Part shown: in pieces, positions 1 through 4,387 of the stretch
Numbering within the stretch: the stretch's first letter is position 1
Layout of the letters: each line of letters begins with the position of its first letter
DNA from: Naegleria gruberi
Lineage: Eukaryota
Reading direction: 5' to 3' (one strand)
DNA length: 4,387 bases
Assembly: GCA_000004985.1 (NCBI GenBank)
Contig: GG739188.1
Notes under the pieces: generated by a model
The model's database searches: none
Told to the model about the DNA's origin: nothing
What the model saw: the letters and a program-made list of their open reading frames with translations, nothing else
Program-made: the position numbers and the translations under genes

Positions 1-2
1 CA

Positions 3-809
3 AAAGGTCAACTTAATTTTATGCGATTTGATGGAAGTACTCCATTTGATCAAAGACAATCCTGTATCGATAAGATTAACGATAATACTAACAATATTAC
101 AGTTCTACTTATTTCAACACTTGCCGGTTGTGAAGGTATTAATTTAATGGGAGCAAATAGAGTTGCACTCATTGATGTAAATTGGAACCCTTCTCATGAT
201 AGTGAGGCTGTTTGTAGAGTGTTTAGAATAGGTCAATTAAAACCAGTATATATCTACAGATTCATTTGTGAGAATACTATGGAAGATCTAGTACTAAAAA
301 GACAATTACAAAAAGAAAACCTTTCTAACTGGATTGTGGATAATGGTAGTTCATCAATAGACGCGTATGATACCAAAAATTTATTGATTTTACCAACAGA
401 GGATATTTCAAAGGAAGAACCAGAAATAGATTCTCTAATCACTGATCCTCTCATTTTGGATATTATTAAAGAAAATACCAAGTGGATCAAACGAGCAGAT
501 TTTAGAGATCAATTATTACGAGATGATCCTCTCAATATTCTTACTGAGGAAGAAAAACAGTTGGCTCATAGCGAAAATGAATTTGAATCTGTTTATGGAG
601 CTAAAAGAAATTATGATAGGAAAAAAGCAGATTCAACTCAAGAACAGAAAGCCAAAGCAACTACTGTCCCAACGATACCTAAGAGGCCAGAAGAGCCAAT
701 TAATACCAATTATCTCAAAGATCAGGAATCGCTTTGGTTGAGAAGACAACAAATAATAGTGGACAAGGAAACTGTAGAAGCCTCAAAGCTTTTACAAATT
801 TTACAAACA
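3..809 (+). CDS. SNF2-family DNA-dependent ATPase, ATRX/ARIP4 (RAD54L2)-like; partial: 5' end outside window, 3' end lost in N-run
   Basis: Frame 3 is open from base 3 to the N-run. The translation '...RFDGSTPFDQRQSCIDKINDNTNNITVLLISTLAGCEGINLMGANRVALIDVNWNPSHDSEAVCRVFRIGQLKPVYIYRFICENTMEDLVLKRQLQKENLSNWIVDNGS' matches the conserved helicase C-terminal block of ARIP4/ATRX as I remember it (ARIP4: RLDGSTP...[52 protein letters not shown]...KQGMSDRVVDD). After roughly base 360 the ORF becomes a low-complexity acidic/lysine-rich tail with no recognisable homology. An intron in that tail cannot be excluded. The ATG at 21 is internal and is not the real start. Confidence 0.8.
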
Positions 810-2331
810 NNNNNNNNNNNNNNNNNNNNNNNNNNNNNNNNNNNNNNNNNNNNNNNNNNNNNNNNNNNNNNNNNNNNNNNNNNNNNNNNNNNNNNNNNNN
901 NNNNNNNNNNNNNNNNNNNNNNNNNNNNNNNNNNNNNNNNNNNNNNNNNNNNNNNNNNNNNNNNNNNNNNNNNNNNNNNNNNNNNNNNNNNNNNNNNNNN
1001 NNNNNNNNNNNNNNNNNNNNNNNNNNNNNNNNNNNNNNNNNNNNNNNNNNNNNNNNNNNNNNNNNNNNNNNNNNNNNNNNNNNNNNNNNNNNNNNNNNNN
1101 NNNNNNNNNNNNNNNNNNNNNNNNNNNNNNNNNNNNNNNNNNNNNNNNNNNNNNNNNNNNNNNNNNNNNNNNNNNNNNNNNNNNNNNNNNNNNNNNNNNN
1201 NNNNNNNNNNNNNNNNNNNNNNNNNNNNNNNNNNNNNNNNNNNNNNNNNNNNNNNNNNNNNNNNNNNNNNNNNNNNNNNNNNNNNNNNNNNNNNNNNNNN
1301 NNNNNNNNNNNNNNNNNNNNNNNNNNNNNNNNNNNNNNNNNNNNNNNNNNNNNNNNNNNNNNNNNNNNNNNNNNNNNNNNNNNNNNNNNNNNNNNNNNNN
1401 NNNNNNNNNNNNNNNNNNNNNNNNNNNNNNNNNNNNNNNNNNNNNNNNNNNNNNNNNNNNNNNNNNNNNNNNNNNNNNNNNNNNNNNNNNNNNNNNNNNN
1501 NNNNNNNNNNNNNNNNNNNNNNNNNNNNNNNNNNNNNNNNNNNNNNNNNNNNNNNNNNNNNNNNNNNNNNNNNNNNNNNNNNNNNNNNNNNNNNNNNNNN
1601 NNNNNNNNNNNNNNNNNNNNNNNNNNNNNNNNNNNNNNNNNNNNNNNNNNNNNNNNNNNNNNNNNNNNNNNNNNNNNNNNNNNNNNNNNNNNNNNNNNNN
1701 NNNNNNNNNNNNNNNNNNNNNNNNNNNNNNNNNNNNNNNNNNNNNNNNNNNNNNNNNNNNNNNNNNNNNNNNNNNNNNNNNNNNNNNNNNNNNNNNNNNN
1801 NNNNNNNNNNNNNNNNNNNNNNNNNNNNNNNNNNNNNNNNNNNNNNNNNNNNNNNNNNNNNNNNNNNNNNNNNNNNNNNNNNNNNNNNNNNNNNNNNNNN
1901 NNNNNNNNNNNNNNNNNNNNNNNNNNNNNNNNNNNNNNNNNNNNNNNNNNNNNNNNNNNNNNNNNNNNNNNNNNNNNNNNNNNNNNNNNNNNNNNNNNNN
2001 NNNNNNNNNNNNNNNNNNNNNNNNNNNNNNNNNNNNNNNNNNNNNNNNNNNNNNNNNNNNNNNNNNNNNNNNNNNNNNNNNNNNNNNNNNNNNNNNNNNN
2101 NNNNNNNNNNNNNNNNNNNNNNNNNNNNNNNNNNNNNNNNNNNNNNNNNNNNNNNNNNNNNNNNNNNNNNNNNNNNNNNNNNNNNNNNNNNNNNNNNNNN
2201 NNNNNNNNNNNNNNNNNNNNNNNNNNNNNNNNNNNNNNNNNNNNNNNNNNNNNNNNNNNNNNNNNNNNNNNNNNNNNNNNNNNNNNNNNNNNNNNNNNNN
2301 NNNNNNNNNNNNNNNNNNNNNNNNNNNNNNN
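810..2331. other. Run of 1522 N (assembly/scaffold gap or hard-masked sequence)
   Basis: Continuous 'n' from 810 to 2331, counted directly from the sequence lines. The non-round length suggests a size estimated from scaffolding, or a masked block, rather than a fixed-length placeholder. Confidence 0.99.
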
Positions 2332-2603
2332 GGCAATAAGTGCCAACACTGTTGCGATAAAACAACCAAACCGCACGGAAGAATGTTGTTGCATTTTTTT
2401 CTTGTAATTCTTCCACAGGTGGGAGATGAGGAGTTTCACTTTCCGGTGTGCTACTTGACAATTTGTGAATAGGATTATCATTGTGTAAATAATTTGTAAT
2501 GAAATCAAAAGTGATGGAAATTGATGAATATTATTCAAGAGCACCTATATTGTTTATTAATCCTAGAAATTAATCTAATTAAGACTAATTGCTGTATTAT
2601 TCA

Positions 2604-2609
2604 ATAAAT
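2604..2609 (+). promoter_or_regulatory. AATAAA hexamer, a possible poly(A) signal for the upstream gene
   Basis: Motif 'aataaa' lies in AT-rich sequence downstream of the gap. AT-rich DNA produces many such hexamers by chance, and the true 3' end of the SNF2 gene is unknown because of the gap. Confidence 0.12.
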
Positions 2610-2627
2610 TGATGAAAAGATATTGAC

Positions 2628-2647
2628 CATTAGACTTCCGGAAAAAG
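2628..2647 (+). repeat. Left terminal inverted repeat (CATTAGACTTCCGGAAAAAG)
   Basis: Reverse-complement match to 3428-3446. It contains the 8-bp palindrome TTCCGGAA. Confidence 0.85.
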
Positions 2648-2654
2648 TTTTGCT

Positions 2655-2668
2655 AAAAGTCGACTTTT
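2655..2668. repeat. 14-bp perfect palindrome AAAAGTCGACTTTT (hairpin-capable)
   Basis: Read directly from the sequence. An A-tract, a GTCGAC core and a T-tract, located 8 bp inside the left TIR. Confidence 0.8.
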
Positions 2669-2693
2669 TTAAGGTACTTTCACGCTAATTTGC

Positions 2694-2742
2694 AAAAAGG
2701 CGCCTAAAAGGTGCCTAAAAGGTGCCTTTTTTACCTAAAAAC
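2694..2742 (+). repeat. Short tandem repeat of an ~11-bp unit (GCCTAAAAGGT-like), about 4 degenerate copies
   Basis: aaaaaggCGCC / taaaaggTGCC / taaaaggTGCC / ttttttaCC / taaaaac read from the sequence. The first unit carries the AAAAAGGCGCC motif that is also found near the right end. Confidence 0.7.
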
Positions 2743-2948
2743 TACTTGAAACACATCCAAAGTTTGTTCAAGAAAATCTTGAGCAACTTTCAAACTGTTT
2801 TCAAACAATTCCTCAAGAATGATTAATTACTTCTCAACCAGATTCTCAAAACGTTCAAGTATTTGCTGAAAAAACCCCAAGGGCCCTCAAACTTCTGAAC
2901 TCACTCTCTTTCTTAACTATATCCTTTTCCAAAAAATCCACCAATTCC

Positions 2949-3242
2949 TTAAGAGATCCAAGGTTTTTGAATGTCACCATCTCGGGTCACTGTAGTTTTG
3001 ATGGATTTTTTTACATCAATCACGAAATCTTTCGAAAGCTCTGGTCTTTTGGGCTCCTCAACTTTTCTTGGCATGATGATTGTTTTCTTTTTGATAAGGT
3101 TCAGGTTTTTTCTCTTTCTGGGTGGAGTGATGTTCAAATCAGATCTCTTCCTCTTCTGGATTTTTTCTTGTTTCACACTTTTTTCTTGTTCCTGTTTCAT
3201 GCTTAATTCAGAATATGGTGTTTCATTAAGATTTTCTTCCAC
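2949..3242 (-). CDS. Hypothetical lysine/glutamate-rich ORF inside the TIR element; probably not a real gene
   Basis: 97-codon ORF from the track. Its first 'M' is the antisense of 'cac', i.e. GTG, not ATG. The first real ATG is antisense to 3198-3200. The purine-rich antisense of a pyrimidine-rich tract avoids stops by composition. It contains KRKR...PPRKRK NLS-like stretches. No homology recognised. Confidence 0.1.
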   Translation of the reverse strand: MEENLNETPYSELSMKQEQEKSVKQEKIQKRKRSDLNITPPRKRKNLNLIKKKTIIMPRKVEEPKRPELSKDFVIDVKKSIKTTVTRDGDIQKPWIS

Positions 3243-3399
3243 TTCCTCAACATCTTCCGTTCAGCAAATGCAGTAAAGAAAAGGTTGACATCAGGAAAAA
3301 GAAAGCTTCAATAAATATGCAGGAAAGGTTTAAACATTTCTTGAATTATGCTCAAACAAATTTCAAAAATTGCTCAAACATTTTTCAAACCACTTTTTT

Positions 3400-3415
3400 A
3401 AAAAGGCGCCTTTTT
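3400..3415. repeat. 16-bp perfect palindrome AAAAAGGCGCCTTTTT (hairpin-capable), subterminal at the right end
   Basis: Read directly. It shares the AAAAAGGCGCC motif found at 2694-2704 near the left end. Confidence 0.8.
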
Positions 3416-3427
3416 ATTTCTTTTTGA

Positions 3428-3446
3428 CTTTTCCGGAAGTCTAATG
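3428..3446 (-). repeat. Right terminal inverted repeat (CTTTTCCGGAAGTCTAATG)
   Basis: Reverse-complement match to 2628-2647, 19 of 20 positions with a one-base homopolymer length difference. Confidence 0.85.
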
Positions 3447-3495
3447 TTTCTTTTATGTTTCTTTTCTAATTTCTCTTACTAAAAAGAACTCCTGA

Positions 3496-3510
3496 TTTTT
3501 ATATATTAAA
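3496..3510 (+). promoter_or_regulatory. TATA-like element (TTTTTATATATTAAA) about 25-35 bp upstream of the aminopeptidase ATG
   Basis: Sequence motif only. Its position would imply a very short 5' UTR. The ATG context aaaaaATGg is A-rich, typical of AT-rich eukaryotes and nematodes. Confidence 0.3.
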
Positions 3511-3530
3511 TTTTCAATTATTAATAAAAA

Positions 3531-3893
3531 ATGGCTCCATCACTCGAAGAACTTTCAAATGCTCAACCGATCACTCAAAAGATGGTTGATTTTATCAATG
3601 AATCCAAATCACCTTATCATGCCGTCGGATCAATTAAAAAAAGATTGTTAGATAGTGGATATGAACAACTCTTTGAAAGAGAAGCAAATTGGGAGCAAAA
3701 AATTAAGCCTTGTGGAAAGTATTTCTTCACCAGAAATCACTCAACAATTGTTGCATTTGCTGTTGGTGGAAAATTTGCTGCTGGAACATCAGGATTGAAA
3801 ATTATTGGAGCCCACACTGACAGTCCTCATCTTGTCATTAAACCAATTTCATCACAAAAGAGTTCTGGTTATCTTCAAGTTGGTGTACAAACT
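3531..3893 (+). CDS. DNPEP: Aspartyl aminopeptidase (peptidase family M18), exon 1 with start codon
   Basis: Translation MAPSLEELSNAQPITQKMVDFINESKSPYHAVGSIKKRLLDSGYEQLFEREANWEQKIKPCGKYFFTRNHSTIVAFAVGGKFAAGTSGLKIIGAHTDSPHLVIKPISSQKSSGYLQVGVQT aligns with human DNPEP as I remember it (...[24 protein letters not shown]...KYFMTRNSSTIIAFAVGG...SLIGAHTDSPCLRVK...QVGVETYGGGIW). The exon ends in phase 0 and is followed immediately by GTAAGT. Confidence 0.9.
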
Positions 3894-3942
3894 GTAAGTG
3901 ATGATTTTATATTTCGGAAATGGAAGAAATATTATTAAATAG
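3894..3942 (+). other. Intron 1 (49 bp), GTAAGTG…AAATAG
   Basis: The exon 1 reading frame ends in a stop (TAA at 3936-3938, also TAG at 3940-3942) if read through. Homology to DNPEP resumes exactly at 3943 ([14 protein letters not shown] vs human YGGGIWSTWFDRDL). Canonical GT…AG ends. Confidence 0.85.
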
Positions 3943-4140
3943 TATGGTGGAGGTTTGTGGTATACTTGGTTCGATAGAGATTTGACAGTTGCTGGTAGAG
4001 TTATTCTTTCTGATGGACAAGGAAAATTCAAGCAACATCTTGTCGAAGTTAAGAGACCAATTCTTCGTATTCCTTCTTTAGCTATTCACTTACAAAGAGA
4101 AGTTTCAACTGATGGTTTCAAACCTAATACTGAACTCCAT
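3943..4140 (+). CDS. DNPEP: Aspartyl aminopeptidase (M18), exon 2
   Basis: [66 protein letters not shown] vs human [23 protein letters not shown]...[35 protein letters not shown]. 66 codons, phase 0 at both ends. Confidence 0.9.
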
Positions 4141-4177
4141 GTAAGTAGTTTGACATTTTGTAAACTAAATTCAATAG
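4141..4177 (+). other. Intron 2 (37 bp), GTAAGTAG…CAATAG
   Basis: Read-through hits TGA at 4198-4200. Splicing 4140 to 4178 restores the alignment (TELH|LLPIIGTEL vs human TEMH|LVPILATAI). Length 37 bp, not a multiple of 3. Confidence 0.8.
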
Positions 4178-4387
4178 TTACTTCCAATTATTGGTACTGA
4201 ATTGGGAGAATTGAGTGATGATCCAAATACTAAGGGATTTATTGCTAACCATCACTCTGTTTTATTGAAAGCTATTGCTGAAGAATTGAAATGTAATGTT
4301 GCTGATATTCGTGATTTTGACATGTCAATTGCTGATGTTCAACCTGGTGTTATTGGAGGTGTAAATAATGAATTTGTTTTTGCTCCA
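4178..4387 (+). CDS. DNPEP: Aspartyl aminopeptidase (M18), exon 3 (partial, continues past the window end)
   Basis: [70 protein letters not shown] vs human LVPILATAIQEELEKG...[48 protein letters not shown]. 70 codons, ending at the window edge. Confidence 0.88.

What the first reader, a model, noticed from the sequence alone, without database searches (positions are those of the whole stretch)
2628..3446. 819-bp TIR-bounded, non-coding, MITE-like element between the two genes
A perfect 19-nt inverted repeat (20 nt with a 1-nt homopolymer slip) flanks ~780 bp that has no credible ORF. Each subterminal region holds multiple short motifs (YTCAAAC / its complement TTGAGCA, AAAAAGGCGCC), the usual architecture of transposase-binding subterminal repeats in non-autonomous DNA transposons. 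I do not recognise the TIR as a named family. No TSD is visible, so it may be an old or imprecisely bounded insertion, or a fold-back structure that never transposed.
Basis: seen in the sequence. Interest (0 to 1): 0.55.

Follow-up and report, generated by a model that had tools for sequence, protein, structure and literature searches.

The report
Young TIR transposon without target duplication
The inverted repeat marks the ends of an 814-bp non-coding mobile DNA element of the amoeba Naegleria gruberi; it sits in a gene promoter in this copy of the genome, is absent from the same site in a near-identical strain, and, unusually for such elements, duplicated no target DNA when it inserted.

Summary
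There is an 18-nt perfect inverted repeat at 2628-2645/3429-3446; 200 shuffles reached at most 15 nt. The subterminal motifs are strongly enriched. The window is a whole 4387-bp Naegleria gruberi scaffold.

- **Second copy.** A near-identical copy (2 substitutions plus a 43-bp indel) lies 31 nt downstream of an eIF2D gene in an independent dataset (ERR1078381). Similarity stops at the repeat end.
- **Empty site.** A 4.7-kb contig from that same dataset carries the window's own locus at 99.2-99.5% identity without the element: GACCA|ATGTTT versus GACCA[TTAGAC...GTCTA]ATGTTT.

The insert is therefore exactly 814 bp (2630-3443, with a 1-nt ambiguity). It is young and polymorphic in presence, and has no target-site duplication of 2 bp or more.

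No frame has a Pfam domain. The 97-aa ORF has no relative among 1.8 billion proteins and is not longer than its composition predicts. No Rfam family matches.

The empty site argues against Tc1/mariner, piggyBac/Kolobok, PIF and hAT, and Spy's AAA|TTT target is not met. On the minus strand it lies between T and T, as Helitron2/Helentron elements do, but it lacks their 3' hairpin tail. The superfamily is unresolved and Repbase/Dfam could not be checked.

The parts
2630..3443 (.). The inserted mobile element, 814 bp. Because A is ambiguous at both junctions, it could equally be 2629-3442.
   Evidence: Filled versus empty allele. Window 2332-2629 matches L010 2767-3081 and window 3443-4387 matches L010 3081-4026. 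L010 reads GATATTGACCA|ATGTTTCTTTT. A second copy, L005 1-857, ends at the same nucleotides.
2631..2645 (+). Left terminal inverted repeat TAGACTTCCGGAAAA. It contains the palindrome TTCCGGAA at 2636-2643. In this copy the complementarity runs on into the flank as far as 2628.
3429..3443 (-). Right terminal inverted repeat TTTTCCGGAAGTCTA. It contains TTCCGGAA at 3431-3438. The near-palindrome GACTTTTCCGGAAGTC at 3426-3441 gives a weak 5-6-bp hairpin.
2655..2668 (.). 14-bp perfect palindrome AAAAGTCGACTTTT, 9 nt inside the left TIR.
   Evidence: The predicted fold is weak.
2695..2727 (+). Three tandem 11-bp units AAAAGG(C/T)GCCT, a candidate protein-binding subterminal repeat.
   Evidence: TRF. 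Motif enrichment is 5 observed against 0.01 expected.
3400..3415 (.). 16-bp perfect palindrome AAAAAGGCGCCTTTTT. It is the same motif as the left tandem units read on both strands, and lies 13 nt inside the right TIR.
   Evidence: (I10).
3349..3390 (+). (TG)CTCAAAC / TTCAAAC repeats with an 11-bp period. Matching TTCAAAC x2 at 2789-2806 and inverted TTGAGCA at 2779-2785 lie on the left side.
3259..3260 (.). Site of a 43-bp internal deletion relative to the L005 copy, bounded by a 3-bp GAA microhomology.
2949..3242 (-). K/E/R-rich 97-aa ORF with no homologues, most likely a by-product of purine/pyrimidine strand skew and not a gene.
2625..2629 (+). Left target flank GACCA, contiguous with ATGTTT in the empty allele.
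3444..3465 (+). Right target flank. The 11-bp tandem ATGTTTCTTTT x2 is also present in the empty allele, so it is not a TSD.
3531..4387 (+). Aspartyl aminopeptidase (M18) gene with two short GT..AG introns (3896-3942, 4141-4186). The element ends 87 bp upstream of its ATG.
   Evidence: P0126 = N. gruberi EFC35492.1.
810..2394 (-). Phospholipase-B-like gene, mostly hidden by the N-run (810-2331). Its start codon is at 2394-2392. The element begins 235 bp upstream of it, so it splits a divergent promoter region that is 340 bp long in the empty allele.
   Evidence: L010 gene 1129-2829, Pfam PF04916; alignment.

Best explanation
An 814-bp non-autonomous class-II mobile element of Naegleria gruberi. 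It consists of 15-bp terminal inverted repeats (TAGACTTCCGGAAAA), palindromic and tandem subterminal motifs that probably serve as protein-binding sites, and a non-coding interior.

Shown:
- It occupies at least two unrelated loci.
- It is present or absent at this locus between near-identical strains.
- Its copies differ by 0.25%, and one is a 43-bp deletion derivative of the other.
- It encodes nothing recognisable.
- Taking the L010 allele as the pre-insertion state, it entered the 340-bp divergent promoter between a phospholipase-B-like gene and the aspartyl aminopeptidase gene without duplicating 2 bp or more of target.

Inferred:
- It is mobilised in trans by an enzyme encoded elsewhere in the genome that recognises the TIRs and subterminal repeats.
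- Integration is TSD-less and slightly asymmetric. On the minus strand the junctions read 5'-T|TAGAC...GTCTAA|T-3'.

My preferred enzymology, at about 35-40%, is single-strand HUH Rep/helicase transfer of the Helitron2/Helentron kind (T|T target, no TSD, short palindrome-containing TIRs). A blunt-cutting DDE transposase is nearly as likely.
For: - The IR is non-random.
- Second copy, L005 1-857: 2 substitutions plus a 43-bp indel. Similarity ends exactly at the IR and is followed by an unrelated eIF2D/SUI1 gene.
- Empty allele, L010: 99.2-99.5% identical flanks, with the element precisely absent.
- No TA, TTAA or TWA occurs at the empty site, and no direct repeat of 2 bp or more flanks the insert.
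- All three observable junction flanks are T on the minus strand.
- No coding capacity: no Pfam hit in any frame, only P0001 among 5.8 billion and 1.8 billion proteins, and an ORF length that is not significant.
- No Rfam family or tRNA.
- The motifs are enriched and confined to the element.
Against: - Only two loci and one filled/empty pair were retrievable, so copy number and target rule rest on n=1-3.
- No autonomous partner was seen.
- The empty allele could in principle be an excision footprint, or carry a 1-nt indel. The neighbouring intergenic DNA differs from the window by several indels.
- For the HUH reading, the 3' TIR lies 1 nt from the end. The 20-60-nt hairpin tail that defines Helitron2/Helentron/HINE termini is absent, and the predicted terminal hairpins are weak.
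- For the DDE reading, Spy is the only TSD-less DDE group described in the papers read, and its AAA|TTT target is not met.
Confidence: 0.85

Rival explanations
1. A blunt or near-blunt DDE cut-and-paste element: a TSD-less TIR transposon that works like Spy but has a different target. The transposase binds the 15-bp TIRs and the AAAAGGYGCC repeats and integrates with 0-1 bp of stagger.
For: - Perfect TIRs, subterminal repeated motifs in both orientations and a microhomology-bounded internal deletion are the classic anatomy of DDE non-autonomous elements.
- There is no TSD at the empty site.
- TSD-less DDE transposition has a precedent in Spy (PMC4122938 abstract, as listed; PMC4482050).
Against: - The insert is asymmetric by 1 nt. 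A symmetric element would need an extra T or a 1-bp target deletion.
- Spy's AAA|TTT target is not met.
- No transposase is linked to the element.
Confidence: 0.3
2. An ordinary DDE element with a short TSD hidden inside the palindromic terminus. The TSD would be AT (ISL2EU-like, element TAGAC...GTCTA) or ANT (Pangu-like, element AGAC...GTCT). The L010 'empty' allele would then be an excision footprint, or one allele would carry a 1-nt change.
For: - All three junctions read AT next to TAGAC.
- GACC-AT-AT-GTTT minus one T gives the L010 sequence GACCAATGTTT.
- The empty site contains AAT, which fits ANT. ISL2EU makes AT TSDs and Pangu makes ANT TSDs (PMC4482050).
- The flanking intergenic DNA is indel-rich between the two strains.
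Against: - It needs an extra event (excision with loss of 1 nt, an indel, or a substitution) exactly at the junction.
- For ANT, the two copies differ (ATT on the left, AAT on the right).
- ISL2EU TIRs start with GG, prefer the target A|AT|T and are reported only from animals. Here the TIR starts with TA and the context is C|AT|G.
Confidence: 0.2
3. Not a transposon. It would be an inverted-repeat-flanked segment copied by segmental duplication or recombination, or a small orphan protein-coding gene cassette.
For: - Only two copies are known.
- A 97-133-codon open frame exists on the minus strand, and a gene caller called an 83-aa product from it.
Against: - Both copies end at the same nucleotide of the IR in unrelated contexts.
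- The element is precisely absent from an otherwise collinear allele.
- The ORF has no start codon at its 5' end, is frameshifted, has no homologue and is not longer than its composition predicts.
Confidence: 0.03

Closest known systems
Helitron2 / Helentron non-autonomous elements (HINE, DINE-1; 'HLE2')
   Same: - No target-site modification.
- Insertion between T and T (minus strand here).
- Short TIRs of 8-16 nt, with the 5' one 0-2 nt from the end.
- TIRs that are themselves palindromic.
- Palindromes next to the TIRs, and internal tandem repeats.
- Non-autonomous deletion derivatives.

Sources: PMC3627910, PMC4067079, PMC5148889, PMC11417382.
   Different: - Here the 3' repeat is 1 nt from the 3' end. 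The 20-60-nt 3' tail with a stem-loop after the right repeat, which defines the group, is missing.
- The terminal hairpins are weak.
- No Rep/helicase partner is known.

I do not file it as a member.
Spy (PHIS superfamily DDE transposons)
   Same: TIR-bounded elements that insert without any TSD (PMC4482050; PMC4122938 abstract).
   Different: Spy inserts strictly between AAA and TTT, whereas this site is CCA|ATG. Spy was described from invertebrate animals (PMC4122938 abstract). No transposase link exists here.
MITEs (Stowaway/Tc1-mariner type, Tourist/PIF type)
   Same: A short, non-coding, TIR-bounded element that is mobilised in trans, inserted next to genes and polymorphic in presence.
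   Different: There is no TA or TWA duplication, and neither sequence exists at the empty site. At 814-857 bp it is at the top of the usual MITE size range. High copy number was not shown.
ISL2EU / Pangu (PHIS groups with AT or ANT TSDs)
   Same: AT is adjacent to TAGAC at all three junctions, and AAT is present at the empty site.
   Different: The empty allele has one A more than an AT TSD predicts. The ANT copies differ from each other. The TIR does not start with GG. ISL2EU is known only from animals.
Canonical Helitron (Helitron1)
   Same: The minus-strand 3' end is CTAA (= CTRR) followed by T, and there is no TSD.
   Different: The 5' end is TA, not TC. The 5' flank is T, not A. The element has long perfect TIRs. 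There is no convincing hairpin 10-12 nt from the 3' end.

Membership tests
Non-autonomous TIR (class II) element / MITE-like | Terminal inverted repeats at the exact ends of the mobile unit | tested here: met
   The 15-nt TIRs lie 1 nt (left) and 0 nt (right) from the insert ends (or 2 and 1 nt under the alternative placement), as defined by the empty site.
Non-autonomous TIR (class II) element / MITE-like | No transposase coding capacity | tested here: met
   No Pfam hit in any frame. The ORF is an orphan and not significant.
Non-autonomous TIR (class II) element / MITE-like | Presence/absence polymorphism or an empty site | tested here: met
   L010 is collinear at 99.2-99.5% identity and lacks exactly 814 bp.
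Non-autonomous TIR (class II) element / MITE-like | Dispersed multi-copy family | tested here: inconclusive
   Two loci were found (window, L005). The source genome could not be searched by DNA.
Non-autonomous TIR (class II) element / MITE-like | Target-site duplication | tested here: not met
   GACCA|ATGTTT versus GACCA[814 bp]ATGTTT. There is at most a 1-nt overlap.
Tc1/mariner (Stowaway-type) | TA target and TA duplication | tested here: not met
   The empty site GACCAATGTTT contains no TA.
piggyBac / Kolobok | TTAA target duplication | tested here: not met
   There is no TTAA at the empty or filled site. The Kolobok criteria are from PMC9587614.
PIF/Harbinger | TWA (TTA/TAA) 3-bp direct duplication | tested here: not met
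   The left side reads TTA and the right side TAA, so they are not a direct repeat. Neither is present at the empty site (criteria).
hAT / Mutator / P / Merlin / Transib | 5-10-bp direct TSD | tested here: not met
   No flank repeat of any such length is present, and the empty site shows none.
ISL2EU | AT TSD in an A|AT|T target; TIR starting with GG | tested here: not met
   AT flanks TAGAC at 3 of 3 junctions. However, the empty allele is CCAATG rather than CCATG, the context is C..G, and the TIR starts with TA.
Spy | No TSD | tested here: met
Spy | Insertion between AAA and TTT | tested here: not met
   The target is CCA|ATG (criterion).
Helitron2/Helentron (HLE2, HINE) | Insertion between T and T without target modification | tested here: met
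   On the minus strand the window reads CAT|TAGAC...GTCTAA|TGG, and L005 reads GTCTAA|TAAAA. This rests on n=1 pair plus 1 junction, with a 1-nt placement ambiguity.
Helitron2/Helentron (HLE2, HINE) | Short TIRs, with the 5' one 0-2 nt from the end | tested here: met
   A 15-nt TIR lies 0 nt from the minus-strand 5' end (criterion).
Helitron2/Helentron (HLE2, HINE) | 3' TIR 20-60 nt from the 3' end, followed by a stem-loop | tested here: not met
   The 3' TIR is 1 nt from the end and there is no tail. Terminal folds are weak: -3.4 to -5.6 kcal/mol, z from +0.4 to -2.0.
Helitron2/Helentron (HLE2, HINE) | Autonomous partner encoding Rep/helicase with the same termini | not testable with these tools
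Fold-back element | Long inverted arms making up most of the element | tested here: not met
   Local alignment of the two 220-nt ends finds only the 18-nt repeat.
Fanzor/OMEGA 'ghost' element | Conserved structured guide-RNA scaffold at one end | tested here: inconclusive
   No Rfam hit at E<=1. Terminal 250-nt folds give z from -2.2 to +1.6. The N. lovaniensis Fz2 TAM (CCG) is not at the flank. No Fanzor locus was available for comparison.

The most novel reading that the evidence does not exclude
The element represents a TIR transposon lineage in Heterolobosea that integrates without any target duplication. It would be either a 'tail-less' Helitron2-like rolling-circle variant whose 3' signal is reduced to the TIR itself, or a second blunt-integrating DDE group besides Spy with a different target. 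It is still active in N. gruberi, and possibly heterozygous in the reference strain.
Probability: 0.3. Interest if true: 0.6.

Novelty: new member of a known kind. Interest (0 to 1): 0.38.

Why it matters
- **TE activity in a TE-poor genus.** Published estimates for Naegleria range from 0.13-0.28% to 2.5-5% of the genome, and none of the papers found in searches for MITEs, TIR elements or DNA transposons in Naegleria describes such a family there. A young insertion that is polymorphic in presence shows that DNA transposition is ongoing in N. gruberi.
- **Practical uses.** It gives a ready strain or haplotype marker. It may also explain why this 4.4-kb scaffold was never merged with the main assembly.
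- **Possible expression effect.** The insertion splits a 340-bp divergent promoter, 87 bp from one ATG, so it is a natural test of promoter disruption.
- **Mechanism.** A TIR element that makes no TSD is uncommon. If the pattern holds over many copies, it would extend either the Helitron2 group or the TSD-less DDE repertoire into Discoba.

Tried and rejected
- **TIR scans of public collections.** Scans with the 18-mer and 16-mer TIR in metagenome, prokaryote-genome and viral collections gave 6 hits. None extended beyond the seed, so they are chance matches.
- **Composite query.** A six-frame protein query meant to fish out further copies and an eIF2D empty site failed. 8000 low-complexity candidates swamped it and even P0001 was lost.
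- **Exact look-ups.** Other element ORFs and the L005 eIF2D fragment are not in the collection. The N. gruberi proteins P0128 and P0124 gave no contigs, so the main 467-kb scaffold could not be inspected.
- **Coding element or degenerate transposase.** Rejected.
- **ncRNA or tRNA-derived element.** Rejected.
- **Omega-RNA-like structure.** No support.
- **First guesses about the source.** I guessed a Glomeromycota-like fungus and then N. fowleri. Both were wrong. Cluster membership shows N. gruberi.
- **TA-TSD (Tc1/mariner) idea.** It was suggested by the L005 contig starting at TAGAC, and was rejected once the empty site showed no TA.
- **Literature.** Nothing turned up on ERR1078381/PRJEB11402, or on MITEs or Helitron families in Naegleria.

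Full report
**1. The observation**

The window holds an 18-nt perfect inverted repeat, CATTAGACTTCCGGAAAA at 2628-2645 and its complement at 3429-3446, with 783 nt between the arms.
With a single gap in the A-run, 20 of 21 positions pair.
- In 200 Markov shuffles of the non-N sequence the longest perfect inverted repeat was 15 nt.
- YTCAAAC occurs 7 times against 1.9 expected, 6 of them inside the element.
- AAAAGGYGCC occurs 5 times against 0.01 expected, all inside the element.
- TRF reports 11-bp arrays at 2695-2727 and 3352-3390.

**2. The source**

The window is eukaryotic.
- An M18 aspartyl aminopeptidase gene starts at 3531 and has two short GT..AG introns.
- An SNF2-type Helicase_C lies at the left end.
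- Cluster look-ups place the source exactly. The aminopeptidase encoded here is N. gruberi EFC35492.1, annotated on a contig of length 4387, which is the length of the window.
- An identical N-terminus (EFC45394.1) lies on a 467,654-bp N. gruberi scaffold.
- A relative with 85% amino-acid identity (L006) clusters with N. lovaniensis.
- The N-run 810-2331 hides a phospholipase-B-like gene on the minus strand whose ATG is at 2394.
- The element therefore lies in a divergent promoter region.

**3. A second copy elsewhere**

The internal 97-aa ORF hit one protein among 5.8 billion: P0001, from Logan run ERR1078381.
- Its 1701-bp contig L005 carries the element at positions 1-857.
- That copy differs from the window copy by 2 substitutions (window 2841 and 3317) and a 43-bp segment that the window lacks after 3259. 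The segment is bounded by a GAA microhomology.
- Similarity stops at ...GGAAGTCTAA|T.
- An unrelated gene follows. It is the C-terminus of eIF2D (SUI1 domain), with its stop codon 31 nt away.
- The contig begins exactly at TAGAC.

**4. An empty site**

An exact look-up of the window's 81-aa exon-2 ORF found L010, a 4700-bp contig from the ENA assembly of the same run (PRJEB11402).
- Window 220-809 matches L010 1-590 at 99.2%.
- Window 2332-2629 matches L010 2767-3081.
- Window 3443-4387 matches L010 3081-4026 at 99.5%.
- The element is absent from L010. The empty allele reads ...AAAAGATATTGACCA|ATGTTTCTTTTATG...
- The filled allele reads ...GACCA[TTAGAC...GTCTA]ATGTTTC....

What follows from this:
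- The insert is exactly 814 bp: 2630-3443, or 2629-3442 because A is ambiguous at both junctions.
- The outermost 2-3 nt of the apparent repeat are flank.
- No duplication of 2 bp or more exists.
- The 11-bp tandem ATGTTTCTTTT x2 to the right is also in the empty allele, so it is not a TSD.
- One sample thus holds an empty aminopeptidase locus and a filled eIF2D locus, while the reference scaffold holds a filled aminopeptidase locus. This is the signature of a recently mobile element.

**5. Anatomy**

- The TIRs are 15 nt (TAGACTTCCGGAAAA) and contain the palindrome TTCCGGAA.
- Inside the left TIR lies the palindrome AAAAGTCGACTTTT, followed by three tandem AAAAGGYGCCT units.
- Inside the right TIR lies the palindrome AAAAAGGCGCCTTTTT, followed by (TG)CTCAAAC repeats.
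- YTCAAAC motifs are in direct orientation at both ends. TTGAGCA is in inverted orientation.
- The interior is strongly purine/pyrimidine-skewed. This explains overlapping ORFs on both strands, since 14% of composition-preserving shuffles give an open frame of 133 codons or more.
- The ORF has no homologue among 1.84 billion representatives other than P0001 itself.
- No frame has a Pfam domain.
- There is no Rfam or tRNA hit.
- Terminal RNA and DNA folds are unremarkable.

**6. Mechanism**

Shown: the element is mobile, non-autonomous and young, and, reading L010 as the pre-insertion state, it inserted without a TSD.

Inferred: it is mobilised in trans by a protein that recognises the TIRs and subterminal repeats.

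- Families that require a TA, TTAA or TWA target, or a 5-10-bp duplication, are inconsistent with the empty site: Tc1/mariner, piggyBac/Kolobok, PIF/Harbinger, and hAT, Mutator, P, Merlin and Transib. The exception would be L010 being an excision footprint that lost sequence.
- On the minus strand the junctions read T|TAGAC...GTCTAA|T in the window and ...GTCTAA|T in L005. This T|T target without target modification, together with short palindrome-containing TIRs and internal tandem repeats, is the pattern described for Helitron2/Helentron elements and their non-autonomous HINE/DINE-1 derivatives.
- Those elements carry a 20-60-nt 3' tail with a stem-loop after the right repeat. Here the tail is 1 nt. 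That defining feature is not met, so I do not file the element there.
- Spy is the only TSD-less DDE group described in the papers read, and it requires AAA|TTT. That is also not met.
- A hidden AT (ISL2EU-like) or ANT (Pangu-like) TSD would need an extra 1-nt event exactly at the junction, and the other features of those groups do not fit. It remains possible because the neighbouring intergenic DNA is indel-rich.

My split of probabilities:

| Mechanism | Probability |
|---|---|
| HUH rolling-circle-like | about 0.35-0.4 |
| Blunt DDE | about 0.3 |
| Hidden-TSD DDE | about 0.2 |
| Not mobile, or a gene | 0.03 |
| Other or unknown | the remainder |

**7. Novelty**

- Non-autonomous TIR elements are a known kind.
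- Papers found in searches for MITEs, TIR elements or DNA transposons in Naegleria describe no such family there, but Repbase and Dfam could not be consulted.
- The lack of a TSD is the unusual point, and it rests on one filled/empty pair.

**8. Limits**

- The N. gruberi assembly could not be searched by DNA, so copy number, the autonomous partner and the target rule remain open.
- A composite protein query wasted the last homology search.

Noticed in passing
window 1-4387: The window is an entire 4387-bp N. gruberi scaffold. Its partial aminopeptidase (EFC35492.1) has the same N-terminal 253 aa as EFC45394.1 on a 467,654-bp scaffold. The window is therefore probably an unmerged allelic haplotype, possibly left unmerged because of the 814-bp insertion.
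   Followed up: partly
window 810-2331 (N-run) and 2332-2394: The N-run hides a phospholipase-B-like gene on the minus strand (L010 1129-2829, PF04916). The same interval is 2176 bp in L010 against 1522 N here, so the gap size is underestimated.
   Followed up: partly
window 3896-3942 vs L006 9861-9863: Intron 1 of the aminopeptidase gene is absent from the N. lovaniensis-like contig, where the alignment is contiguous. This points to intron gain or loss between Naegleria species.
   Followed up: no
L006 2657-9409 vs L010 1115-3170: Between the SNF2 gene and the aminopeptidase gene, the N. lovaniensis-like contig has about 7 kb carrying several extra ORFs (three unknown, the PLB-like gene, one RCC1-like). 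N. gruberi has only the PLB-like gene there.
   Followed up: no
window 2440-2530 vs L010 2875-2975: The promoter-side flank differs between the two strains by a 14-bp indel, a 3-bp indel and a 5-nt substitution cluster. It is far more diverged (92.7% identity) than the coding flanks (99.2-99.5%).
   Followed up: no
window 3444-3465: A perfect 11-bp tandem duplication, ATGTTTCTTTT x2, lies immediately 3' of the insertion point. It is also present in the empty allele. The element inserted exactly at the start of the first unit.
   Followed up: yes
window 2633-2640 and 3434-3441: Each TIR contains ACTTCCGG/CCGGAAGT, the ETS/GABP-type core, and TTCCGGAA, a perfect GAS/STAT-type palindrome. This is probably coincidental in an amoeba, but it places two such sites in a promoter.
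   Followed up: no
L005 1: The Logan contig starts exactly at the first base of the TIR (TAGAC). A de Bruijn contig would break there if the sample held further copies with other flanks. Low coverage cannot be excluded.
   Followed up: no
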